Under the pieces are notes generated by a model. It was not told where the DNA came from, made no database searches, and saw only the letters and a program-made list of their open reading frames with translations. 16,051 nt of DNA from a virus (lineage: Duplodnaviria > Heunggongvirae > Uroviricota > Caudoviricetes). Made by a program: the position numbers and the translations under genes. This document shows, one piece after another, positions 1 through 12,109 of the stretch (its first letter is position 1; each line of letters starts with the position of its first letter). The stretch spans positions 1 through 16,051 of IMG/VR virus record IMGVR_UViG_2541047805_000003; one strand, given 5' to 3'.

Positions 1-567
1 ATGCTTATTGGCTATGTACGCGTGTCAACAAATGACCAGAACACCGATTTGCAACGTAGTGCGCTGAACTGCGCGGGATGTGAGCGGATTTTTGAGGATA
101 AAATCAGTGGCACTAAGTCCGACAGACCGGGGCTGAAAAAACTGCTCAGGACACTATCGGCAGGAGACACGCTGGTTGTCTGGAAGCTGGACAGGTTGGG
201 GCGCAGTATGCGGCATCTTGTTACGCTGATAGAAGAGTTGCGCCAGCGTGGCGTGAATTTCCGAAGCCTGACTGACAGTATTGATACCAGCACCCCAATG
301 GGCCGTTTCTTTTTTCATGTCATGGGGGCCCTGGCTGAAATGGAACGCGAACTGATAGTTGAACGTACCAGGGCGGGGCTGGCTGCAGCTCGTGCTAAAG
401 GCAGAGTAGGTGGACGCCGTCCTAAGTTGACCACCGAACAGTGGGCACAGATTGGACGTTTACTCGAGGCCGGAGAATCAAGACAGCGTATTGCACTGAT
501 TTTTGATGTGGGTGTTTCCACAATTTATAGAAAATTTCCGGCAAATAAGAGCAATGAATCCCCCTGA
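1..567 (+). CDS. Serine recombinase, DNA invertase of the Gin/Pin/Cin/Hin family
   Basis: 188 aa. N-terminus MLIGYVRVSTNDQNTDLQ with the catalytic serine context, VVWKLDRLGRS, and a C-terminal HTH (GRRPKLT...STIYRK); near-collinear with Mu Gin / e14 Pin as remembered. Lies directly upstream of a tail gene, as expected for a tail-fibre inversion module. Confidence 0.93.
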   Translation: MLIGYVRVSTNDQNTDLQRSALNCAGCERIFEDKISGTKSDRPGLKKLLRTLSAGDTLVVWKLDRLGRSMRHLVTLIEELRQRGVNFRSLTDSIDTSTPMGRFFFHVMGALAEMERELIVERTRAGLAAARAKGRVGGRRPKLTTEQWAQIGRLLEAGESRQRIALIFDVGVSTIYRKFPANKSNESP

Positions 568-615
568 ATCAGCATTATGTTGATTATCCCTGCAAGCAGA
601 CAAATACCGTCATTT

Positions 616-633
616 TGTATGAATAACGGTACA
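616..633 (+). promoter_or_regulatory. TGT-N12-ACA dyad, candidate Ogr/Delta-type late promoter activator site upstream of the FI fragment
   Basis: tgt(616-618)-N12-aca(631-633), about 80 bp upstream of the FI ATG at 710. P2-family late promoters carry this dyad centred near -55. No convincing -10 element was identified. Confidence 0.3.
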
Positions 634-709
634 ACTGCGCTTAGCTGTTTGTCAGGCACAATCACTTCAACATAGGGCGAAGCCTAATCCAATCAGGAGG
701 TTCGCCACT

Positions 710-1320
710 ATGGCTCAGGATTACCACCACGGGGTGCGCGTTGTTGAAGTCAACGAAGGCACCCGATCCATTACCACGGTGAGCACCGCCATCGTGGGTA
801 TGGTCTGCACGGGCGATGATGCCGATGCAAAAATGTTTCCTCTTAATAAACCCGTGCTGATCACTGATGTGCTGACTGCCAGCGGTAAAGCGGGTGAGTC
901 CGGCACGCTGGCCCGTTCGCTGGATGCCATCGCTGACCAGGCAAAACCCGTGACCGTTGTTGTGCGTGTGCCGCAGGGTGAAACGGAAGAAGAAACCACG
1001 ACCAATATCATCGGCGCAGTGACTGCTGAAGGTAAAAAAACAGGCATGAAAGCCCTGTTATCTGCCCAGACACAGCTCGGCGTTAAACCGCGCATTCTCG
1101 GCGTGCCAGGTCACGATAACAAAGCCGTTGCTACTGAGTTGCTGAGTGTGGCGCAAAGCCTGCGTGGGTTTGCTTACCTGTCAGCGTATGGCTGCAAGAC
1201 GGTGCAGGAGGCGATCACTTACCGTGAAAACTTCAGCCAGCGCGAAGGAATGCTGATCTGGCCCGACTTTACTGGCTGGGACACGGTGCTGAATGCCGAA
1301 GCAACGGCATATACCGAAAT
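710..1320 (+). pseudogene. Tail sheath protein (P2 FI-like), N-terminal fragment only
   Basis: The first ~200 aa (MAQDYHHGVRVVEVNEGTRSITTVSTAIVGMVCT...NFSQREGMLIWPDF) look like a contractile tail sheath N-terminus. After about nt 1320 the frame continues to 1468 without sheath-like sequence. Strong RBS aggagg at 695-700. A full P2 FI is about 396 aa. Confidence 0.75.
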
Positions 1321-2312
1321 TCCAGGAGCTGCGCAAAGTGGCTTCCGGTATGGCTATTCACAAGAAATGGCGACAGACCTATTTTTCCACGCCATCCAGT
1401 CTGACACACAGTGCTTATCCGTTCTGGTCCGGTGCGCTGTTCAACCGTGGGCGCAACAGAGCCGATAAGGTGGACATCGACCTGTCCCACAGCAATCTGG
1501 CCCCCGGCCTGCTGTGCGCAGACGGGCAATACCGCCAGATAGTCACCGTGGAAGATGCGGTGCGCGGCGGCTGTAACCTGTTCGACCTTGACCAGTTGCG
1601 CATGGAGTACAGCCCTGACGAATACCAGAACTTGCTGATGTGCGAGTTCGTGGACGATCTCGCGTCCGTGTTCCCGCTCAGCGAATTGCAGGCGTGCATG
1701 GTGGACAGCTGGGAAGTCTGGACCGACTTTCATGCACTGGCCCTGCGCCCGTTTGGCTGGCGCGAAGTGTGGATCGGTTATGACCCGGCAAAAGGTACGC
1801 AGAACGGCGACAGCGCCGGATGCGTGGTGGTGGCACCGCCAGCCGTGCCAGGCGGTAAGTTCCGCATTCTTGAGCGTCACCAGTGGCGCGGAATGGACTT
1901 TCGCGCCCAGGCTGACGCCATCAAAAAACTGACCGAACAGTACAACGTGACCTATATCGGCATCGACTCAACCGGCGTTGGTCACGGGGTTTACGAGAAC
2001 GTGAAAGCGTTTTTTCCTGCCGTCCGGGAGTTTGTCTACAACCCCAACGTTAAAAACGCCCTGGTACTCAAGGCCTACGACATTATCAGCCACCGCCGTC
2101 TTGAGTTTGACGCCGGGCACACCGACATTGCGCAGTCATTCATGGCAATCCGTCGCGCCACCACCGCCAGCGGCAACCGCCCGACCTATGAAGCCAGCCG
2201 CAGCGAAGAAGCCAGCCATGCCGATCTGGCCTGGGCAACAATGCACGCACTGTTTAACGAACCACTGCAGGGCGAGTCCGCCAATACCAGCAATATTGTG
2301 GAGATTTTTTGA
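1293..2312 (+). pseudogene. Terminase large subunit (P2 gpP-like), C-terminal fragment only
   Basis: The translation from about nt 1326 onward (KKWRQTYFSTPSSLTHSAYPFWSG...SRSEEASHADLAWATMHALFNEPL) resembles the C-terminal nuclease half of a P2-type terminase ATPase subunit. The N-terminal ATPase half is absent and the 5' boundary abuts the FI fragment. The TGA stop overlaps the portal ATG (TGATG). Confidence 0.75.
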
Positions 2313-3337
2313 TGGGAAAGAGTAAGAAGAACCGCGCTGCGGCGACGAAACAGATCCAGCATAAAAACCAGACTTCAGCCGAAGCATTCAGCTTCGGTGA
2401 TCCCGTTCCTGTTCTGGACCGCCGCGAACTGCTGGACTATGTGGAATGCGTACAGATGGACCGTTGGTATGAGCCACCAGTGAGTTTCGACGGCCTGGCG
2501 CGAACCTTCCGTGCCGCCGTACACCACAGCTCACCGATTGCAGTAAAGTGCAACATTCTGACCAGCACCTATATCCCTCACCCGTTGCTCAGCCAGCAGG
2601 CTTTTTCACGTTTTGTGCAGGACTATCTGGTATTTGGTAATGCCTACCTGGAGAAACGCACGAACCGCTTCGGTGAAGTTATCGCCCTTGAACCTGCCCT
2701 GGCAAAATACACTCGACGCGGATTAGACCTGGATACCTACTGGTTTGTGCAATACGGTATGGCAACCCAGCCGTATCAGTTCACGAAAGGCAGCATCTTT
2801 CATCTGATGGAACCGGATATTAATCAGGAGATCTACGGCCTGCCTGGCTATCTTTCTGCTATTCCATCCGCTCTGCTCAACGAGTCCGCCACGCTGTTCC
2901 GCCGGAAGTATTACATTAACGGCAGTCATGCAGGCTTCATCATGTACATGACCGATGCCGCGCAAAACCAGGAGGATGTGAACAACCTCCGCAACGCAAT
3001 GAAAAGCGCCAAAGGACCGGGTAACTTCCGCAACCTGTTTATGTACTCGCCTAACGGCAAAAAGGATGGGCTTCAGATCATTCCTCTGTCAGAAGTCGCG
3101 GCGAAGGATGAGTTTCTGAATATCAAAAATGTCAGCCGCGATGACATGATGGCAGCACATCGCGTACCGCCGCAAATGATGGGGATTATGCCTAGCAATG
3201 TCGGGGGGTTTGGGGATGTAGAGAAAGCTAGTAAGGTATTTGTGCGGAATGAGCTTTTACCTTTGCAAAAATTGATGCAAGCGCTTAATTGTTGGCTAGA
3301 TGAAAATATAATTACATTTAATAAATATATTTTGTAG
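2312..3337 (+). CDS. Portal protein (P2 gpQ-like)
   Basis: 341 aa from the ATG at 2312 (the ORF track starts at the TTG at 2309). Length and sequence character fit a P2 Q portal (about 344 aa). Follows the terminase gene on the same strand with a stop/start overlap. Confidence 0.88.
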   Translation: MGKSKKNRAAATKQIQHKNQTSAEAFSFGDPVPVLDRRELLDYVECVQMDRWYEPPVSFDGLARTFRAAVHHSSPIAVKCNILTSTYIPHPLLSQQAFSRFVQDYLVFGNAYLEKRTNRFGEVIALEPALAKYTRRGLDLDTYWFVQYGMATQPYQFTKGSIFHLMEPDINQEIYGLPGYLSAIPSALLNESATLFRRKYYINGSHAGFIMYMTDAAQNQEDVNNLRNAMKSAKGPGNFRNLFMYSPNGKKDGLQIIPLSEVAAKDEFLNIKNVSRDDMMAAHRVPPQMMGIMPSNVGGFGDVEKASKVFVRNELLPLQKLMQALNCWLDENIITFNKYIL

Positions 3338-3351
3338 TTCCTGTTTATAAT

Positions 3352-3373
3352 TAACGCCTGCCTGAGCAGGCGT
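3352..3373. terminator. Hairpin between the convergent portal gene and the DUF262 gene, probable bidirectional terminator
   Basis: aacgcctgc (3352-3360), loop ctga, gcaggcgtt (3365-3373): 9-bp perfect stem. Followed by ctttcattt on the + strand and by an A/T-rich run on the - strand. Confidence 0.5.
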
Positions 3374-3377
3374 TCTT

Positions 3378-5159
3378 TCATTTAAAACGTGTTGCAATAT
3401 CTGCTGCTTCGATAACTGTTGCTTTTACGGTATTATCGCCAGCACGATAATAAATATCCCCATCATAACTAGAATAAGATGCTAGAAGTGGAATTGTAAT
3501 AACTATAACTCCATAACCATAAAAGTCATTATAGTCAATCAAACTCACCACTTGTGATTTAAGAGGCTCACTCAAAGCAGATTTTTTCAACTCATCGCAA
3601 AAACGTCTATAATATTCTTCCATTGATATGCCGAGTTTAATAGCTTCTCTTTTAACACCAACAACACTTCTCTCACCAACTACATGTGCATCTATATCAT
3701 CAAGCTCTTTTACTCTACTTGTATCACTTGGTTTATCTGTTACACCAAGCAATAACTTACCAACTACACCGTTCTTGTTACCTTTACCGATGTTAGCAAT
3801 AGCACAAATTGTGGAGAATATTTTCTCATGAATGCCATCATCAATAGTTCGCTCTCCGCCTAACATCAACAAACCCTGTTTCAGTTCATAATTTGCAAGC
3901 TCTATTTCAGATCTTCGTAAAATATCCTCAATATCCACCGTATTGTGAGAATTATAGATATGACTGCTATCGGCGCTATCAATAAAGTTATCTTTAATCA
4001 AGCCTATGATAGAATTAATATTCTTTCTTCTCTCTTCCCCACCAGTAGCAGATCTTTTAGTATCTAGTCGAGTGACTATATTATTAAGATTGTCTTTTAC
4101 ACCTTTATAATTATTAATCTTCTTATTTTCTTTAATGAGTAATTCATGAAAAGCAATAAATAACACAGCAAATATGGCTGGGAAAGCATTTGTAGTACGT
4201 TTAGTAAAGATTAAATCCCTGAGTTTAATTTCACCGTCACTATTACATACTTTTGTTATTTCCTGGATGCAGAATTTAAACTCTTCTGCAAATTTTCCTT
4301 CACCATAAACATTAATAGCAGAGCTAATACGACTATACTCTTCATCTTCATTATTATAAATCTGATCAAGCGCATCTTTGGAACGATCTATTAACTTACC
4401 TCCAACAATACAAGCTGCTATATCTGCAATGCATTGCTCATCCATACTGTCACGAAGGTCTGTTGAACGTAAGATCCCATGTTTTACCCAAAATACTTCT
4501 TCCGACTGAATTTGGTAACCATGTTTAGTTAGTGGCAAATCAATGCTAATAGACGGCATTTGCTCTAAAAGCAATATGTCGTCAGATACATCCCCCCTGA
4601 TAGAACAGGCAATATCCCTAACCATATTTGAAAATTTATTTTGTATACCAGCCTGGCGCCTTTCTTGATCACTAAGTCTATGCCCGTATGTATTAATTCT
4701 ATCAAAAACATCATTTATTTCGTTCTCAGTCGCATTACGCATAATGGACATTGCAAGAGAATAATCCAATAACTGAGTAACCTCACGCTGACTTAAAAGA
4801 TTATCAGCTTTCACTGCAACAAACTTACCTTCATCCGCTCGATTTTTCGCTGTGGGAAAAGCGTCCAGATTAAAACGTTTTCCATCAAGTGATTCATATC
4901 CTGTTTCGATGAAAGACATTATTGCATGTAATCTTTGTAGGCCATCAATTATTTCATATGTGCCAGGATCATTTTCCCTTTCCGCGAGAAGAACTGCAGG
5001 AATTGGATATTTTTTTTGAATGGATTCAATTAATTTTTGTTTCTCTATTGCAGTCCAAACTAATTTTCGTTGATAACGTCTATTAACAAATATCTTACCT
5101 TCAGTAAACCATGAATAAATAGTTTGTATAGAAGTTGTTTGCGGTAATAGTTCAGCCAT
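3378..5159 (-). CDS. DUF262 (ParB/GmrS-like NTP-binding) domain protein with an uncharacterised C-terminal half; candidate defence protein
   Basis: 593 aa, ATG with AAGGAA about 9 nt upstream. N-terminus has the DUF262 hallmarks YQRKLVW and IIDGLQRL (DGQQR-like). No DUF1524/His-Me finger motif seen in the C-terminal ~350 aa. Coding sequence is markedly AT-rich compared with the flanking phage genes. Confidence 0.75.
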   Translation of the reverse strand: MAELLPQTTSIQTIYSWFTEGKIFVNRRYQRKLVWTAIEKQKLIESIQKKYPIPAVLLAERENDPGTYEIIDGLQRLHAIMSFIETGYESLDGKRFNLDAFPTAKNRADEGKFVAVKADNLLSQREVTQLLDYSLAMSIMRNATENEINDVFDRINTYGHRLSDQERRQAGIQNKFSNMVRDIACSIRGDVSDDILLLEQMPSISIDLPLTKHGYQIQSEEVFWVKHGILRSTDLRDSMDEQCIADIAACIVGGKLIDRSKDALDQIYNNEDEEYSRISSAINVYGEGKFAEEFKFCIQEITKVCNSDGEIKLRDLIFTKRTTNAFPAIFAVLFIAFHELLIKENKKINNYKGVKDNLNNIVTRLDTKRSATGGEERRKNINSIIGLIKDNFIDSADSSHIYNSHNTVDIEDILRRSEIELANYELKQGLLMLGGERTIDDGIHEKIFSTICAIANIGKGNKNGVVGKLLLGVTDKPSDTSRVKELDDIDAHVVGERSVVGVKREAIKLGISMEEYYRRFCDELKKSALSEPLKSQVVSLIDYNDFYGYGVIVITIPLLASYSSYDGDIYYRAGDNTVKATVIEAADIATRFK

Positions 5160-5293
5160 GAAACAAATTCCTTCTTCTGGATAGAATTTTATAATATAGA
5201 AACTGAAAAGGTTAAGTTACCATCAAAAATGATGATAGCAACAAAAAGATACCATTTTGTAATTTTTTGTTCAGATTTTCATATCAGAGCGCG

Positions 5294-5312
5294 CTCGTAT
5301 CCCCGCCACGCC
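5294..5312. other. cos-like sequence (186/P2-type cohesive-end motif)
   Basis: The minus strand reads GGCGTGGCGGGGATACGAG; the first 13 nt match the 186 cohesive end (GGCGTGGCGGGGA...) as I remember it. It lies in a short GC-rich islet inside otherwise AT-rich cargo, between replication gene A and portal Q, where P2-family cos is expected. Confidence 0.4.
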
Positions 5313-5361
5313 TGCCCGCTTTATGTAGTGGTTTTCATGCAGGTGCATGACATAAGCAAAA

Positions 5362-5381
5362 GCCCGCCAGTTCTGGCGGGC
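5362..5381 (-). terminator. Candidate intrinsic terminator downstream of the two-gene operon
   Basis: gcccgcc (5362-5368), loop agttct, ggcgggc (5375-5381), followed on the minus strand by TTTTGCTTATG. Lies 146 nt downstream of the membrane-protein gene and upstream of the DUF262 gene promoter region. Confidence 0.45.
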
Positions 5382-5526
5382 CTCAGCAAAAACGATCCTA
5401 AAACGATCATGCGGATTCATGCAGCATAGACATGCAAAGCTTGTTAGAACGGTGATTCCCATGTTAAAGGAGGCTTACTCTTGTTGAGGTTAAACATCCA
5501 CAGTAACTCCTGCCAATACGAACACT

Positions 5527-6063
5527 TTATTCATCATAGTGTTCTAATTTCGCTTTTGCTAAACGTCCATGTAAGTGATTAACAAAATGTAAATTACTCA
5601 AAATCAGGCTCATAACGCATTTTAATTGCATCCAGCTAATAAAGTAAATGAAGAAAATACCAATGTATTTAAACAAGTCTTTATTAGCTTGATAAACAGG
5701 TAATGCATAAAACACTGCCTTAACCAAAAAGAAAATTAGAATCCCAGCCATAACACAAGCAGATGTGATTATTGTATAAACTAATTTCTCTATTCTTGGT
5801 GAGTCATGCTCATTTTTTATATAACTTACATCATCCTTAACAATACTATTCATTGCATTCGGATATAAAAAACCGACCCATAAACCGACAATAGTGAATA
5901 TAGATGCTGAAATATTTATAAGCGCACCTAAAATATCTTTTGCATCATTATAGGAAAAACTTTTGAACGAAAAATAGCTTATAACGCAGCACAAAACAAC
6001 AGCAACAAAATTAATCGCCTGCTGTTTTGCAACTGTTATTATCAAACCTTCCGTTTCTGTCAT
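5527..6063 (-). CDS. Small multi-pass membrane protein (about 4 predicted TM helices); candidate effector
   Basis: 178 aa. Hydrophobic stretches INFVAVVLCCVISYFSF, ILGALINISASIFTIVGLWVGFLY, LVYTIITSACVMAGILIFFLV and YIGIFFIYFISWMQLKCVMSLILS. ATG at 6063 sits 1 nt after the upstream stop (TGATATG on the minus strand) with a GGAAGG SD inside the upstream gene. AT-rich. Confidence 0.75.
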   Translation of the reverse strand: MTETEGLIITVAKQQAINFVAVVLCCVISYFSFKSFSYNDAKDILGALINISASIFTIVGLWVGFLYPNAMNSIVKDDVSYIKNEHDSPRIEKLVYTIITSACVMAGILIFFLVKAVFYALPVYQANKDLFKYIGIFFIYFISWMQLKCVMSLILSNLHFVNHLHGRLAKAKLEHYDE

Positions 6064-6064
6064 A

Positions 6065-7264
6065 TCAACCTTCCGCTATCTTTTTTGTGGATGCAGCTTC
6101 AGATTCTTTAATGGATGCTTCCTCAGCATATTTTACTTCACTAATCAAATCATCACGAATTTTGTTTATTTCATCCAGTAAAAAACGCGCTGAATAATGC
6201 TCAAACCCATCCGAATCTTGAAGAGGAAGTTTAGTCCTGGCTACATAGCTACTGAGCCAAACCGGATTAGCACGATCAGCCAGTAAAAAACCCACATCCC
6301 ATTCAGACTCTTCACCTCTCATTGAGAAGAGATTTCGAAGCTCATCCGATGATGGTGCACCGTCAATTTTAACTTCAATTTTACGAGGCTGCTCCAAAAC
6401 AGGAGGTGCCCCAATAAGCTTATTACGCTTTTCTTCACCCACCAGAGATGCTAAAGCTACACTTGTTAGCTTCAACAATGGTTGCCTTGTGTCATTTTGG
6501 TTTATTACCGTTGTATCCTTTATCAATGTGTGTGTAATTTTATGCCTTAACCTTTCAAAGTTTTCCTCAGCGGCTTTAAGTTTTGTTTCTTCCAATACAA
6601 ACTTGAAGATACAGTTTATCTCATTTTTGCCATCTTTATATTGAAACTTAGTATTGTAGACATCCACACAACGACCAGGGGTCTTAGCTGATTCAAATGT
6701 ACGCTTAGATTTCGTTCTTTTACCTAACTTACTATTATTATTTACATGCTGAATGAAGTATTGTGCGAAGAGATAAGTATCAGCGAAAGAATGGGGGAAT
6801 CTGATTGATGCTATTTTATTCAACTCAGGAATAATCCAGTAATAGCAGGGTTCACCCCAAATTATTTTATCCTCACCATGTTCTCTTCCCGCCCTAATGG
6901 TTCCTTTACTATCACCACTTACTTTAGAACCGACCTTAATACCATGTATTCCGTTACCGTTCCCCACTTCACGGTATAAAACAATTACTGCATCTTTAGT
7001 CTGGCTGTCCCTCACAAGGCCTCGACTGTAAACTCGTGTTCGCAGAGGTTGTTCTTCTTTATTCCATGGGAGAGTCTGCTCAAAATTTTTATCCTTGAGC
7101 CACCCTTCTAAATCGTCCAAAACCCCCATAAGATCGCCGAATTTATAATCAAGCTCTTCGGGTTTATTCTTTAAACGATAAAACCCACAAGCAGTAATAT
7201 CAAAGAAGGTGATTGAGCCGTTGTCCACTAAAACTCCTTTTTGCCAAAGCAACACACGATACAT
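6065..7264 (-). CDS. Hypothetical 399-aa soluble protein, no recognisable family; first gene of a two-gene operon with the membrane protein
   Basis: Long AT-rich ORF with an ATG start and a weak SD. Translationally coupled to the downstream membrane-protein gene. One R-x4-H match (RHKITH) is the only motif noticed, and that is weak. Confidence 0.7.
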   Translation of the reverse strand: MYRVLLWQKGVLVDNGSITFFDITACGFYRLKNKPEELDYKFGDLMGVLDDLEGWLKDKNFEQTLPWNKEEQPLRTRVYSRGLVRDSQTKDAVIVLYREVGNGNGIHGIKVGSKVSGDSKGTIRAGREHGEDKIIWGEPCYYWIIPELNKIASIRFPHSFADTYLFAQYFIQHVNNNSKLGKRTKSKRTFESAKTPGRCVDVYNTKFQYKDGKNEINCIFKFVLEETKLKAAEENFERLRHKITHTLIKDTTVINQNDTRQPLLKLTSVALASLVGEEKRNKLIGAPPVLEQPRKIEVKIDGAPSSDELRNLFSMRGEESEWDVGFLLADRANPVWLSSYVARTKLPLQDSDGFEHYSARFLLDEINKIRDDLISEVKYAEEASIKESEAASTKKIAEG

Positions 7265-7429
7265 TTTTCACGTATACCATCAGAATCGTCCCTAAACTTC
7301 AAGTTACTTATGATAATCAAGAAAGCTGTCGAATGTTGTTGCATAGGCCAAAGTTTCAGGGGAACAAGGCATTCTTAAATCACTTTTCACTACCCGTTTC
7401 TAACGCCTCACGCGGCTCGTTGTTCAACC

Positions 7430-7464
7430 TTGCGGACGATAAAAACCAGTTTTATCGTCCGCAA
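7430..7464. repeat. Perfect 15-bp inverted repeat with a 5-nt loop
   Basis: ttgcggacgataaaa (7430-7444), accag, ttttatcgtccgcaa (7450-7464). Lies immediately 3' of the DinI-like gene and in the upstream region of the 399-aa gene. No U-tract follows on either strand. Confidence 0.6.
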
Positions 7465-7470
7465 CGTTCG

Positions 7471-7704
7471 CTAGTGTAACCAGCTGTCGTCCTCCCAGAC
7501 CTTCTGCATAATTTTCATCACTTGTTTTCTTTCTTCGTCCAGTTGCAGTCCGGTCAGTTCCACACCGTTAGAGCTACCTTTGCGGATACGAATTACCGTT
7601 TTGGGATACAGGGGGCGCAGATTGCGGTAAAGCTCGGATTCAAGGGCGTCCAGTGTAGACTGGCTAATCTTCTGCTCTTTATCGATCATTATTTCAATGC
7701 GCAT
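7471..7704 (-). CDS. DinI-like protein (DNA-damage-inducible protein I family; 186 Tum C-terminal-like)
   Basis: 77 aa from the ATG at 7704 (GAGGTG SD). MRIEIMIDKE...LDALESEL...VWEDDSWL aligns along its length with E. coli DinI (MRIEVTIAK...IDALAGEL...TWESADDWF) as remembered. Confidence 0.75.
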   Translation of the reverse strand: MRIEIMIDKEQKISQSTLDALESELYRNLRPLYPKTVIRIRKGSSNGVELTGLQLDEERKQVMKIMQKVWEDDSWLH

Positions 7705-7714
7705 AAAAGTCACC

Positions 7715-7903
7715 TCAGCTGATGACATCCATTGAGCGGTTGTATTCATGGGTTCTGATTTTTGCCATGAGTTCATCTGTCAGTTCAGAAACCCACTGCA
7801 GGGCCAGCCCCTTCTCTTCATCACTACACTCACTAGCCGCTACAAGCTTAAGAAAAAAATCAATGCGCTGGAGCTTCAAAGACTCCAAAAAATAGTCCTG
7901 CAT
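7715..7903 (-). CDS. Hypothetical 62-aa protein, first gene of the LexA-boxed operon
   Basis: ATG at 7903 with AGGAGG 4 nt upstream; ends 11 nt before the DinI-like start. No recognisable motif. Confidence 0.5.
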   Translation of the reverse strand: MQDYFLESLKLQRIDFFLKLVAASECSDEEKGLALQWVSELTDELMAKIRTHEYNRSMDVIS

Positions 7904-8055: not shown

Positions 8056-10428
8056 TTAATACAGATCCCGCCACTTATCATCTTCCTGCAAACGCTGGTT
8101 CCGATAGAAGATACGCAGGCCTGCTCCTGACGGAATACTGCCACCGCGAAGGAGTAAATCGACCTCTTTCTCGCTGCCATCAAATCCTCTGGACTTCAGT
8201 TCATAGACGAGCTGCTGTCGCTGATGATCTGTAATTCGCTGTTTGTAGTCTCTACGCCGTTTCGGTTTCACCAGGCGTAACCTTGCAGCCAGTTCCCGGC
8301 GCTCTTTTTTGTTCATACTGTGCAGGTAATCGTGCAATTCCTTGTCATCCATGCGGGTGATATCCGTTCTGGTATCCCCATCAGCTGATTTGTCTTTCCC
8401 TTGTTGGTACAAATTTTCAGCAAGGGGACAGTTATTGCCACGAGTCCAAGGGGCGCAAGCGCCCTGGTCGGCTGCCGCCTCCTGAACATCAACGGCCTTA
8501 CGAACCATTTTCCACTTCACGGCATGAGTGCAGATCTTGCCCTCTGCAATAGGTGACCAGATGCCATAAATACGAATGCCGTGATCGCCATAGGCGGTCG
8601 GCTCTTCGTTGATTTCATAAGCGGTTCTGATGAGGTGATATTTGCGGGGAACCAGTACGCCGCCCTGCTTCATGATGTAGGTGGCAAAACAACCAGCATC
8701 AGCAGCAGCCAGGATGGCATCAAGGCGCGGGTTATCCAGTACCGGCGCACCTGCTTTTTTGTCCCCCTGTTGCCTTGCCGCCTGACCAGCCAGCAATCGC
8801 AGTTCACGGTAAGCCTGACGCCCCGGAATGCCAAAGAAGCGGAATTGCTGAACACGATGCAGAGACGCCCAGGCATTAACGTATTCAGCATTATCACGCA
8901 GGGATTTCCCCGTTTCCTTGCTGATCTCGCCAGCCAGACCACGCCCGTCAATGTTCTTACTGATGTATTTCGCGATGTAGCTTGTTGGCGTACCTTTGCG
9001 CGGGTTAATCAACTCAGACTTAAAGCGCGGCCCAGTGTTATTGCCCAGTTCCTCGCGGTCTTCACGGATGGCAAACTTACGCAGTAATGCAGTGATGGCG
9101 CGGCGGTCTTTTTTGCGCATAAAACACAACAGGTGCCAGTGAACTGTACCGTCATGATGCGGCTCAGCCACCCGCACGCCATACCACCGCAATCCGGCTT
9201 TGTGCATCGCCTTACGAAATGCAGCAAACATGCCGACCAGATAATCACTGCTTTGTCTTACCGTCGCATTTGTCCAAGTTGGGTTGGGCCTGCCATTATT
9301 TAGCGTGGAATGGAAACGTGACGGACAGGTGATGGTGTAGAAAACGGCGCAGTCACCGCGCATTTCCGCGATAAGCTCCAGGCCTTTAACACAGGCCATC
9401 ATCTCATTGCGGCGATGCGCAGGGTTGCTGCTGCTGGCGTTTACCACATCCTCCATGTCCAGCGTGTCGCCGTCTTCGTTCACCAGTTCATGAGAACGAA
9501 AAAACTCCAGCGACTTACGGCGCTGCTCACGTTTATGCATCACGGCTTCATAGCTGACATAGGGAGATGCTTTTTTGCTGACCAGGCAGACAGCACGCAA
9601 CTGCTCTTCCCGCCATTCGCAACGCATCTTCCATAATTTCCGGTACCACCAGTCAGCGCACAACATACGCGCCAGCGAACCCGGAATGAGTTCATAGGGC
9701 ACGGGTTTACGGCGGTTTCTTTTCCGGCGGAGTTGCTCAAACGCAGGCGGGATGACATCCAGACGCAGGGTTTCCGCTGCCACCTTTTCCCATGTCTTGC
9801 GGATTTCTTCTGGCTTAACGTCATCGGTGACATACAAATCGCCACAAGCTGCATCAAGGCACATGCTCATATGCGCAGCTACCAGGGTGGACAGGCGTTT
9901 CACCTGATCCTGACTCATTTCAGGCAGGATCAGCAGGCCGTCCAGCCCTTCATGGCTTGCCATAAAGCGAAAAGAAGTGGATAGCTGACAGTCGCGTACA
10001 TGCTCCAGCCGTTCCAGACATGGCTTAATCGTCTCACGCAAATAGCGGGAATAAGCCTTTGGCCTGCCCAGGCTGCTGAAGTATTCAATACGTTGCATCA
10101 GCGGCTTGCTGATATGGGAAGGCTGGGCATTGACGTCCGCCAGAATGACCATATCTGGATTAAAACGCTGCTGCTCATGCGCCAGCTTTGCCCGACTAAT
10201 GAGCTTATCCTGCTCCATTTCGCGCTGGACAGGATCACGGGATTCATTAAAGAAATAACGCTCCCAGACCTGATCACTCAGTGCCTCGCGGCGCAGCTGT
10301 TCCTGCTCGTTATCGGCAGCGTACAGAGCGATCAGATTTGAAAGCGCAGAAACTGAAGATTGCTCTTCTGTCTCTACGTAAGGATTGATTGCTTTTTTCT
10401 CAGCATTCCAGGAATAGCTGTAGTTCAT
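8056..10428 (-). CDS. Replication initiation protein (P2/186 gpA family rolling-circle endonuclease)
   Basis: About 790 aa with the HUH-type motif [15 protein letters not shown] and the active-site tyrosine motif [14 protein letters not shown]. Start taken as the ATG at 10428 (GGAG SD; TAATG overlap with the upstream stop) rather than the TTG at 10479 listed in the ORF track. Confidence 0.88.
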
Positions 10429-11258
10429 TACGCAATCTCCAGTTCGAGCTGTGAAGGCTGCAAACCATTCGACAGCCAATCAGAAACTGAAGGTGGGCGA
10501 ACAGCTTCAATTGCACCTTTTAAAATTGCGCAACGGTTTTTCAGAATGACAGCTTTCAGCTCCTTTTCCGTCAGATTGCGCGAATACTCAGCCTCCTGAA
10601 TAGCCCGCGTCAGCTCAGGATATTTGCTATTAAATTTGGGGACATTGCAGGCAAGATTTGTACTGTCGGCAGTCGCCAGTGGGTAATTTCCCAACACACG
10701 ACCGTCAAGCATGCGCAAACCATGAACAGCTGTTTTGAAATTGTGTCGGCAATAAATTGCTTCAAAAGCGTCCTGCATACGACGATGCCAGTGCGCAGTT
10801 CTGATAGCCGCATATTCACCAGACGATCCAAAGCAGACACGAGGCCATTCACGACATAGCTCGATAAGCCGATCGATTGACTCGTGCAGATGCCAGACGG
10901 GAGTTGCCTTCCCGTAGAACATTTTCGGAACTTCGTTTATCAGGGCATCATTGTCACGTTCACCTCCGTCCACAACATCAGGAATGACAAAAAAAGCGAC
11001 CTTAGGATGGTGGTAATAGTTCAGGAGCCATTTATAAAAATCACTCCAGTTAATTTTTAGCCCACGCACCCATGCAGAAAATGCGCCGTTATCAATGCCG
11101 ACGACCTGAGCGTGCTGAATGGACGCCGCAATCTGATCTGGTCGTACATAGGAGACGAAAGCGCCAGCTCCGCTCACCGCAATACGATGAACGTCGCCAG
11201 CACTTCCCCAGACAGGCGTCCCATGGAAATGATGAATTCCGTGGTGCATTTCTTTCAC
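10428..11258 (-). CDS. Hypothetical 276-aa protein, translationally coupled between Dam and gene A; function unknown
   Basis: GTG start at 11258 overlapping the Dam stop (GTGA), or ATG at 11249. His/Trp-rich N-terminus ([10 protein letters not shown]). No confident motif match. Confidence 0.65.
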
Positions 11259-12109
11259 ACTTGCACCCCGAAAATAACAGTAGAGTCACGTCCCCTACTA
11301 AAATCGGCACTAAACCAATTAGCAGATTTAGTGGCAATCATCTCTGTTGCAAATTTTCCCTCCCCCGCTGCAACGCCGATGCTGCGTTTCGCCCTGATGT
11401 AGTGGTGAGTGAAATTACGATAAAGGGACCGGGTCAAAGACGTGTTACTGTTAGAAACAATGACCGGATGTCCTTCTGATGACCGATGTTCAAGAATGGA
11501 TGCCAGGTGATACTGATCATCTTCAGTGAAACCATCAGTGTGATAGCCGGAAAACGTACCGTCATAAGGCGGATCGCAATACACCACATCCCCCACCTTC
11601 AACATCGCCAGCGTTTCATCAAAGCTGGCGCAGATAAACGTTGCCCGCTGGGCTTTCTCTGCAAATGCGCGAATTTCTTTTTCAGGGAAATACGGATTTT
11701 TATAATTACCGTAGGGAATGTTGAAATGCCCGCTCTTGTTATAGCGACATAAACCACGGTAACCGTGACGATTGAGATACAGGAAATATACCGCTTTCAT
11801 GAAATCAGTAATTTCAGTGGAGTAATTAAACTCCTGCCTTATGTTGTAATAAGCCACCTCTCTGTTTGCTTCCTCAAATAAAGCTCTGGCACGAGATATA
11901 AACGCCTCACAATCAGCAGCAACCTTTTTATAGAGGTTGATTAAATCAGGATTAATATCCGCAACAAGATAGCTGGGGTAATCCGTCTCCATCATCACTG
12001 CACAGGAACCCGCGAAAGGTTCAACCAGTCGCGGGCCAGCAGGAAGATGCTTTTTCAGTTCGGACATTATGGCGGTTTTATTTCCTGCCCATTTCAGGAT
12101 GGTGCTCAT
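11255..12109 (-). CDS. dam: DNA adenine methyltransferase (Dam family, GATC-type N6-adenine MTase)
   Basis: 284 aa from the ATG at 12109 (ATGA overlap with the upstream stop). LKWAGNK, the DPPY catalytic motif and [16 protein letters not shown] are near-collinear with E. coli Dam. Confidence 0.9.

What the first reader, a model, noticed from the sequence alone, without database searches (positions are those of the whole stretch)
3378..5159. DUF262 protein with a non-canonical C-terminal domain
The N-terminus carries the DUF262 signatures (YQRKLVW; IIDGLQRL). These are found in GmrSD-type type IV restriction enzymes, BrxU and SspE, where DUF262 is fused to a DUF1524 His-Me nuclease. Here the C-terminal ~350 aa show no DUF1524-like motif, so the effector domain looks different or novel. 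The gene has its own promoter region and is convergent with the portal gene.
Basis: partly seen in the sequence, partly recalled or inferred. Interest (0 to 1): 0.72.

Follow-up and report, generated by a model that had tools for sequence, protein, structure and literature searches.

The report
Prophage DUF262–Schlafen anti-phage defence gene
This P2-like prophage gene fuses a ParB-like DNA/NTP sensor (DUF262) to a Schlafen-type nuclease instead of the usual GmrSD nuclease; that architecture was recently shown to protect E. coli from phages, so this is a new member of a known class, not a new effector.

Summary
The 593-aa ORF at 3378-5159 (minus strand) is real and intact, and it runs convergent with the portal gene. 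It has three domains:
- ParB-like DUF262, aa ~16-185 (Pfam GmrSD_N, E=1.6e-22).
- A helical middle domain, aa ~186-400. GmrSD, SspE and Menshen NsnA have the same domain.
- A C-terminal Schlafen/AlbA_2 domain, aa ~401-593.

A 2026 paper defined DUF262-Slfn fusions as a prokaryotic Schlafen class. It showed that EcoSlfn7 from E. coli UC4224 cuts T7 plating about 540-fold. UC4224's only detected homolog is 60% identical to this protein and sits in the same cos-adjacent slot of a sister P2-like prophage.

The gene stands alone, is low in GC, and lies in the known P2 gpA-gpQ defence hotspot. The likely mechanism is sensing of phage DNA gated by NTP, which then licenses the Schlafen RNase (probably a tRNase); this is inferred, not shown.

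Verdict: new member of a known kind, of modest interest.

The parts
3378..5159 (-). DUF262-Schlafen fusion gene. 593 aa, identical to WP_000818977.1. PGAP names it 'GmrSD restriction endonuclease domain-containing protein'.
   Evidence: ORF. Exact match in E. coli UMNK88, W and others. Full-length homologs of ~590 aa.
4605..5114 (-). ParB-like DUF262 NTPase/sensor domain, aa ~16-185. Motif I QRKLVW is at 5055-5072, motif II DGLQR at 4932-4946 and motif III FDRIN at 4692-4706.
3960..4604 (-). Helical middle domain, aa ~186-400. It corresponds to the 'ParBDB' DNA-binding domain of NsnA, GmrSD-M and SspE-M.
3381..3959 (-). Schlafen/AlbA_2 nuclease domain, aa ~401-593.
3879..3902 (-). Schlafen catalytic motif E420-LANY-E425-L-K427, which fits Ex4(E/D)xK.
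   Evidence: Motif position. E420 and K427 are 92/92 invariant and position 425 is D or E in 92/92. Motif definition and catalytic mutants (RorSlfn5 E15A/D20A, CbCash E17Q/D22N).
5186..5215 (-). Candidate sigma-70 promoter (TTAACC-18-TAAAAT), 27 bp upstream of the ATG.
   Evidence: Consensus scan only. The number of sites in the region is no higher than in shuffles. Sequence.
5294..5312 (-). P2-family cos-like 19-mer GGCGTGGCGGGGATACGAG, immediately upstream of the gene.
   Evidence: Similar to P2 cos GGCGAGGCGGGGAAAGCAC and its flanks. Conserved upstream of the UC4224 and P4-type alleles.
5357..5382 (-). Hairpin GGCCCGCCAGAACTGGCGGGC followed by TTTT. It is a terminator-like structure ending the upstream PDC-M18 genes and insulating the DUF262-Slfn gene.
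   Evidence: Read directly from the sequence. Conserved in UC4224. The automated scan did not call it.
3353..3374 (.). Hairpin AACGCCTGC-CTGA-GCAGGCGTT between the two convergent stop codons. It occupies the position of the annotated P2 tQ terminator.
   Evidence: Terminator scan. P2 annotates tQ in the same position relative to Q.
2312..3337 (+). Portal gene gpQ, convergent with the DUF262-Slfn gene. It marks one border of the cos-proximal hotspot.
   Evidence: Annotation of the identical UMNK88 locus. Relatives.

Best explanation
This is a stand-alone, single-gene anti-phage defence protein of the DUF262-Schlafen class (pSlfn7 in Perez Taboada et al. 2026). A P2-like prophage carries it as cos-adjacent cargo to exclude competing phages.

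Proposed mechanism:
1. The N-terminal ParB-like DUF262 domain and the helical ParBDB-like middle domain form an NTP-binding, DNA-engaging sensor, as in GmrSD, BrxU, SspE and NsnA.
2. When the sensor engages invading phage DNA or a replication intermediate, an NTP-dependent change in conformation or oligomeric state exposes or assembles the C-terminal Schlafen active site (E420, E425, K427, probably with D475 and E505).
3. The active nuclease cleaves RNA, most likely host and phage tRNA. Translation shuts down and the infection aborts.

What is shown and what is inferred:
- Shown here: the domain architecture, the fold, conservation of both active centres, the stand-alone genomic habit and the hotspot location.
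- Shown by others for the 60%-identical homolog: anti-phage activity.
- Inferred: the trigger, the coupling step and the RNA substrate.
For: Architecture and fold:
- Pfam finds GmrSD_N plus SLFN_AlbA_2. Most of the top 120 homologs carry both domains, and so do 9 of the 10 most divergent members.

Conservation:
- In 92 homologs of 26-55% identity, the invariant residues are the three DUF262 motifs plus E420 and K427. Position 425 is always E or D.
- The family has 273 clusters at 50% identity with E<=1e-30, and most are full length.

Experimental precedent:
- The DUF262-Slfn fusion EcoSlfn7 from E. coli UC4224 lowered plating of a broad range of phages, T7 by 538-fold, when expressed from its native promoter.
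- UC4224 has one homolog, WP_028985442.1. It sits in the same DinI/cos -> gene -> <-portal slot and is 60% identical and collinear over its full length.
- The bacterial Schlafens characterised so far (RorSlfn5 and CbCash) are sensor-gated tRNases that use the same E/D pair.

Genomic context:
- There is no conserved neighbour in five other settings.
- The identical gene in E. coli W lacks the PDC-M18 genes.
- The gpA-gpQ cos-proximal region is a published defence hotspot.
- GC content is 34-39% against 53-59% in the phage core.
Against: - This exact protein has never been tested, and 60% identity allows a different specificity or no activity at all.
- I could not get the EcoSlfn7 accession. Equating it with WP_028985442.1 rests on that being the only homolog detected in UC4224.
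- No substrate, trigger or catalytic-mutant data have been published for any DUF262-Slfn protein.
- The top structural hit, SAMD9 7ksp, is a DNA-bound AlbA_2 domain, so a DNA substrate is not excluded.
- The Pfam AlbA_2 hit in this protein is below the gathering score (19.8 against 25.3 bits).
- The promoter call is no better than chance.
- One of 18 E. coli copies (EC43) has a 1-bp deletion.
Confidence: 0.7

Rival explanations
1. A GmrSD-like type IV restriction enzyme with a swapped nuclease. DUF262 recognises modified or foreign DNA, and the Schlafen/AlbA_2 domain cuts the phage DNA directly. On this reading it is a direct-immunity DNase, not an abortive RNase.
For: - The N-terminal two-thirds is homologous to GmrSD, BrxU and SspE, whose partner nuclease cuts DNA.
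- Pfam historically described AlbA_2 as a putative DNA-binding domain; JGI names say 'Putative DNA-binding domain'.
Against: - Every Schlafen-fold nuclease whose substrate is reported in the papers read here cleaves RNA: RorSlfn5 and SLFN11 cleave tRNA, and CbCash cleaves tRNA plus 16S rRNA.
- RorSlfn5 activation was assayed with an SOS reporter (legend only).
- The homolog's strongest target is T7, whose DNA is unmodified (my background knowledge), which argues against modification-dependent recognition.
Confidence: 0.15
2. The Schlafen/AlbA_2 domain is only a nucleic-acid-binding module. Defence comes from the ParB-like DUF262 domain itself, through NTP depletion or ParB-type nuclease or clamp activity on phage DNA.
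For: - Some mammalian Schlafens lack catalytic residues and have non-nuclease roles (introduction).
- The DUF262 domain is the most conserved part of the protein, with a mean majority fraction of 0.54 against 0.39 for the other two domains.
Against: - E420, E/D425 and K427 are conserved in 92 of 92 sequences. D475 (D or E in 91/92) and E505 (E or D in 92/92) are nearly so. That pattern is hard to explain for a non-catalytic domain.
- The same residues are essential in RorSlfn5 and CbCash.
Confidence: 0.07
3. Not a defence gene. Instead it is a phage housekeeping or regulatory factor that acts at the adjacent cos site, for example in packaging, partition or end protection, using a ParB-like DNA clamp.
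For: - The gene lies directly next to cos in three different P2/P4-type elements.
- ParB-family proteins are classic site-specific DNA clamps.
Against: - Most P2-like phages lack the gene and carry unrelated cargo in the same place: a retron, Hypoth_Ymh, or old/tin.
- Close homologs sit alone in chromosomes far from any phage.
- The UC4224 homolog protects when cloned on a plasmid in a strain without the prophage.
Confidence: 0.03

Closest known systems
EcoSlfn7 / pSlfn7 class (DUF262-Schlafen fusion), E. coli UC4224; Perez Taboada et al., Nat Microbiol 2026 (PMC13056530)
   Same: - Same three-domain architecture and nearly the same length (589 against 593 aa).
- 60% identity and 77% similarity, collinear end to end.
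- Same Ex4ExK and DGxQR motifs.
- Same genomic slot: cos -> gene -> <-portal in a P2-like prophage.
   Different: - 40% of residues differ, and a 4-residue insertion lies in the Schlafen domain (GNKNGVVG against GTLG).
- The promoter spacer differs.
- This allele is untested, so its phage range may differ.
- Equating the UC4224 protein with EcoSlfn7 is my inference; the accession was not available.
GmrSD-family type IV restriction enzymes (GmrSD, BrxU, SspE)
   Same: - N-terminal DUF262 with QRxxxW, DGxQR and FxxxN motifs.
- The helical middle domain that follows it.
- Single-polypeptide sensor-effector logic.
   Different: The C-terminal DUF1524 His-Me/HNH DNase is absent and a Schlafen/AlbA_2 domain takes its place. 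The expected substrate is RNA, not modified DNA.
Menshen NsnA (NsnABC system)
   Same: This is the best PADLOC hit: NsnA at E=8e-31 over aa 7-383, covering ParB-DUF262 plus the ParBDB domain.
   Different: No NsnB ABC-ATPase or NsnC effector gene lies nearby. Here the effector is fused in cis.
RorSlfn5 and CbCash (characterised bacterial Schlafen tRNases); human SLFN11/12/13/14 and SAMD9
   Same: - Schlafen/AlbA_2 fold with a conserved acidic pair plus lysine.
- An effector gated by a fused sensor domain.
   Different: The sensor differs. Here it is DUF262/ParBDB. The others use an Ig-like domain that binds a phage tail chaperone (RorSlfn5), a Csx15 domain that binds cA4 (CbCash), or helicase and other domains in mammals.
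P2 old/tin and other cargo of the P2 gpA-gpQ cos-proximal hotspot (Rousset et al. 2022, PMC9122126)
   Same: - Same hotspot.
- Low-GC accessory cargo with its own expression signals, interchangeable between related prophages.
   Different: - The protein family is unrelated.
- This gene lies on the portal side of cos, whereas old and tin lie on the gpA side.

Membership tests
GmrSD-family type IV restriction enzyme | N-terminal DUF262 (PF03235) with QRxxxW, DGxQR and FxxxN motifs | tested here: met
GmrSD-family type IV restriction enzyme | C-terminal DUF1524 (PF07510) His-Me finger nuclease | tested here: not met
GmrSD-family type IV restriction enzyme | NTP-dependent cleavage of modified (e.g. 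glc-hmC) DNA | not testable with these tools
   This needs biochemistry or phage assays.
Prokaryotic Schlafen defence proteins (pSlfn), DUF262-Slfn subclass | Schlafen/AlbA_2 fold domain | tested here: met
Prokaryotic Schlafen defence proteins (pSlfn), DUF262-Slfn subclass | Catalytic Ex4(E/D)xK motif | tested here: met
   E420-x4-E425-x-K427. 92/92 conserved, with E or D at position 425. I did not superpose the motif residues on the SLFN11 active site.
Prokaryotic Schlafen defence proteins (pSlfn), DUF262-Slfn subclass | Fusion to DUF262 in one polypeptide | tested here: met
Prokaryotic Schlafen defence proteins (pSlfn), DUF262-Slfn subclass | Confers phage resistance; phage-triggered tRNA cleavage | not testable with these tools
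   Resistance has been shown only for the 60%-identical UC4224 homolog. tRNA cleavage has been shown only for other pSlfn classes.
Menshen (NsnABC) | NsnA-like protein with ParB-DUF262 plus ParBDB domains | tested here: met
   PADLOC NsnA E=8e-31, aa 7-383 aligned to model positions 49-370 of 385.
Menshen (NsnABC) | Adjacent NsnB ABC-ATPase and NsnC effector genes | tested here: not met
   The neighbours are the portal gene and PDC-M18B/A. No ATPase partner appears in five other genomic contexts.
PD-T4-2 | Two-gene system with the DUF262 protein PD-T4-2_A and its partner | tested here: inconclusive
   Only the N-terminal aa 14-184 match PD-T4-2_A (E=2.4e-18). No adjacent co-oriented partner gene is conserved. 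I did not search specifically for the partner model.
Cargo of the P2-like cos-proximal defence hotspot | Located between replication gene gpA and portal gene gpQ, next to cos, and variable between related phages | tested here: met

The most novel reading that the evidence does not exclude
DUF262-Slfn proteins could be the first case where a ParB-type, NTP-gated DNA clamp directly licenses a Schlafen tRNase within a single polypeptide. That would link recognition of invading DNA, possibly unmodified and possibly its ends or replication intermediates, to translational shutdown.

A second possibility concerns the alleles. [quoted passage not shown] They may carry different phage specificities, set by the variable helical middle domain.
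Probability: 0.35. Interest if true: 0.55.

Novelty: new member of a known kind. Interest (0 to 1): 0.3.

Why it matters
RefSeq labels this gene 'GmrSD restriction endonuclease domain-containing protein'. That label points to the wrong effector and substrate: this looks like a Schlafen-type nuclease system, not a His-Me DNA restriction enzyme.

The identical gene is in E. coli W (ATCC 9637) and its industrial derivatives, and in porcine ETEC. It may therefore affect phage susceptibility in production and veterinary strains.

The DUF262-Slfn subclass has a published defence phenotype, but its trigger, substrate and activation mechanism are not known. Three natural alleles, about 60% identical to the window protein, sit in matching cos-adjacent slots of P2-like and P4-like elements. 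They offer a ready set for mapping what determines specificity.

Tried and rejected
- Sequence searches of the PDB with family profiles (A1 full length, A3 C-terminal domain) found nothing meaningful. Only fold comparison revealed the Schlafen relationship.
- Foldseek on the full-length model gave weak, mixed hits: BrxU at E=7.7e-4, with AlbA_2 and SLFN hits at E>1e-3. A separate model of the C-terminal domain was needed.
- No supplementary tables were held for the Schlafen paper or its preprint, so I could not read the EcoSlfn7 accession. I located the UC4224 homolog with a sensitive blastn search instead.
- A literal search for the P2 cos 19-mer with up to 3 mismatches found nothing. The cos variant turned up by blastn against the P2 end junction and by reading the sequence.
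- I tested whether the two upstream genes form an operon with the DUF262 gene and rejected the idea. They match the separate PADLOC candidate system PDC-M18. A terminator and cos separate them from the gene. They are absent beside the identical gene in E. coli W.
- Rousset 2022 and the 2026 P2/P4 hotspot paper do not mention DUF262, Schlafen or GmrSD in their main text.
I scanned the ten most divergent instead.
- In the upstream alignment I gave the E. coli W row in the wrong orientation, so it is uninformative.
- The window has no tRNA genes and no Rfam families.

Full report
**1. The observation**

The window has a 593-aa ORF on the minus strand at 3378..5159 with an ATG start. The third DUF262 motif, FDRIN, is at aa 152-156.

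Pfam matches GmrSD_N/DUF262 over aa 16-170 at E=1.6e-22, and no DUF1524 appears even at E<=1. The gene is convergent with the portal gene gpQ, which ends at 3337. A hairpin terminator at 3353-3374 lies between the two stop codons.

**2. Where the window comes from**

The window is part of a P2-like (Peduoviridae) prophage.
- From position 1311 onward it is 98.8% identical to E. coli UMNK88, and positions 3300-5550 match at 100%.
- The gene encodes WP_000818977.1. It is present at >=99.9% identity in 18 of 5,426 complete E. coli genomes, including E. coli W and its derivatives and porcine ETEC. In the 15 copies listed with their flanks the portal gene lies beside it.
- One copy, in strain EC43, has a 1-bp deletion.

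Related phages carry other cargo in the same place: a retron in Klebsiella phage 4LV2017, a Hypoth_Ymh protein in vB_EcoM-813R9, and old/tin in P2. Rousset et al. 2022 described this gpA-gpQ cos-proximal region as a hotspot of anti-phage systems. GC content is 34-39% across 3200-7000, against 53-59% in the phage core.

**3. Local anatomy**

Reading the minus strand, the order is:
- two genes (6065-7264 and 5527-6063) that match the PADLOC candidate system PDC-M18 A and B;
- a strong hairpin followed by a T-run at ~5357-5382;
- a P2-family cos-like 19-mer, GGCGTGGCGGGGATACGAG, at 5312-5294 (P2 has GGCGAGGCGGGGAAAGCAC);
- a sigma-70-like site at 5215-5186, which is a consensus match no better than chance;
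- the DUF262 gene.

The PDC-M18 pair is absent beside the identical gene in E. coli W, so it is separate cargo. The DUF262 gene therefore lies between cos and the portal gene, whereas P2's old and tin lie on the other side of cos.

**4. Domain architecture**

An AlphaFold2 model built from a 41-sequence alignment has mean pLDDT 82 and pTM 0.77. It shows three parts.

(ii) aa ~186-400, a helical domain. The PADLOC NsnA (Menshen) model aligns across aa 7-383 at E=8e-31. A 2025 analysis defines this region as the 'ParBDB' DNA-binding domain shared by NsnA, GmrSD, SspE and DndB.

(iii) aa ~401-593, a Schlafen/AlbA_2 domain.
- Pfam SLFN_AlbA_2 is sub-threshold in this protein (E=1.2e-3). It is recorded for most of the top 120 homologs and found in 9 of the 10 most divergent relatives.
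- A model of this domain alone has pLDDT 88.8.

**5. Active sites**

The Schlafen catalytic motif Ex4(E/D)xK, as defined, is present as E420-LANY-E425-L-K427.

The exhaustive search of representatives found 4,538 relatives. Of these, 273 are clusters at 50% identity with E<=1e-30, and most are full length at 580-620 aa.

In an alignment of 92 of them at 26-55% identity, the invariant positions are:
- the DUF262 motifs (R27, Y29, Q30, R31, W35; D72, G73, Q75, R76; F152, N156);
- E420 and K427.

Position 425 is D in 47 sequences and E in 45. D475 is D or E in 91 of 92, and E505 is E or D in all 92. Both the NTP-binding centre and the nuclease centre are under strong purifying selection. The equivalent E/D pair is essential in RorSlfn5 (E15A/D20A) and CbCash (E17Q/D22N).

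**6. Prior knowledge**

Perez Taboada et al. (Nat Microbiol 2026) catalogued 5,930 prokaryotic Schlafen proteins, of which DUF262 fusions make up 1.8%. [quoted passage not shown] T7 was reduced 538-fold. Neither that paper nor the others I read reports a mechanism for this subclass.

A sensitive blastn search found one homolog in UC4224. It is WP_028985442.1, 589 aa, and it sits in the same DinI/cos -> gene -> <-portal slot of a sister P2-like prophage. It is 60% identical and 77% similar to the window protein and collinear over the full length.

A third allele, WP_063081156.1, is 62% identical. It lies in the P4-satellite hotspot between psu and the integrase gene. In all three elements the gene begins shortly downstream of the cos 19-mer, and the spacer that carries the promoter differs.

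**7. Stand-alone status**

An 89%-identical copy in Pluralibacter lies between a nitroreductase gene and an MscS gene. Copies about 60% identical in Achromobacter and in metagenomic genomes lie among housekeeping, toxin-antitoxin, Fic or transposase genes. No neighbour recurs. There is no NsnB- or NsnC-like partner.

**8. Mechanism**

Shown here:
- the architecture, the fold and conservation of both active centres;
- autonomy of the gene and its hotspot location.

Shown elsewhere for a 60%-identical homolog:
- anti-phage activity.

Inferred:
- the DUF262 and ParBDB domains sense phage DNA in an NTP-dependent way, by analogy with GmrSD, BrxU, SspE and NsnA;
- this gates the Schlafen nuclease, which most probably cleaves tRNA, as RorSlfn5, CbCash and the mammalian SLFNs do. 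In those systems the sensor domain controls the oligomeric state and exposure of the Schlafen site.

The homolog is most active against T7, which argues against a strictly modification-dependent type IV mechanism. That T7 DNA is unmodified is my background knowledge.

The main rival is direct DNA cleavage, that is, a GmrSD analogue with a swapped nuclease. It is not excluded, because the closest structural match is a DNA-bound AlbA_2 domain.

**9. Verdict**

The effector is a known Pfam domain, and the fusion class already has a published defence phenotype. The protein fails the membership test for GmrSD (no DUF1524) and for Menshen (no NsnB/C). It passes every computationally testable criterion for the DUF262-Slfn class of prokaryotic Schlafens.

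It is a new, untested allele of a known kind. What interest remains lies in the unresolved trigger and substrate of this subclass and in the natural allele series in P2 and P4 hotspots.

Noticed in passing
window 1-1312, junction at ~1311: The first 1.3 kb holds a serine recombinase/DNA invertase (1-567; Resolvase plus HTH_7) and the 5' part of the tail-sheath gene. It joins directly to the middle of the terminase gene gpP: ORF 1293-2312 lacks the N-terminal ~250 aa. In UMNK88 the two pieces lie ~13.5 kb apart in opposite orientation. That pattern fits an inversion breaking both genes, which would make the prophage defective, or an assembly artefact.
   Followed up: partly
window 5527-6063 and 6065-7264 (minus strand): Two co-oriented genes match the PADLOC candidate defence system PDC-M18 (B at E=2.8e-18, A at E=5.9e-31). 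Pfam finds no domains in them. They are a second, independent cargo in the same hotspot, on the gpA side of cos, and are absent from the E. coli W and UC4224 prophages.
   Followed up: partly
window 5294-5312 (minus strand); L015 and L016 upstream regions: A variant P2-family cos 19-mer (GGCGTGGCGGGGATACGAG) lies 135 bp upstream of the DUF262-Slfn start codon. The UC4224 P2-like prophage and a P4-like satellite (which has the exact P2/P4 cos) show the same gene-next-to-cos arrangement. In the packaged linear genome the gene would sit at the extreme end.
   Followed up: partly
window 10428-11258 (minus strand): A 276-aa ORF sits between the replication gene gpA and the Dam methylase gene, in a ~1-kb segment (10353-11334) missing from the E. 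coli W and UC4224 prophages. It matches phrog_887, labelled 'queuine tRNA-ribosyltransferase', at E=2.4e-96, but has no Pfam or PADLOC hit. It could be a DpdA-like DNA-modification gene or another moron.
   Followed up: no
L016 (E. coli Ec-FL1-1X, NZ_CP066836.1) 6001-7767: A 62%-identical DUF262-Slfn allele (WP_063081156.1) occupies the hotspot of a P4-like satellite, between psu and the integrase gene, next to tRNA-Leu. Nine complete E. coli genomes carry it. The same defence gene family is thus shared between helper-phage and satellite hotspots.
   Followed up: partly
E. coli EC43, NZ_CP196712.1 3536996-3538776: One of the 18 near-identical copies is 1 bp shorter and is annotated as two CDSs (a hypothetical protein plus a DUF262 protein). 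It appears to be a frameshifted, probably inactive, copy.
   Followed up: no
NZ_CP026085.1 and NZ_CM135829.1 (records labelled E. coli DH5alpha): Two assemblies labelled DH5alpha carry this P2-like prophage gene at 100% identity. As far as I know, K-12 DH5alpha has no such prophage, so the strain labels may be wrong.
   Followed up: no
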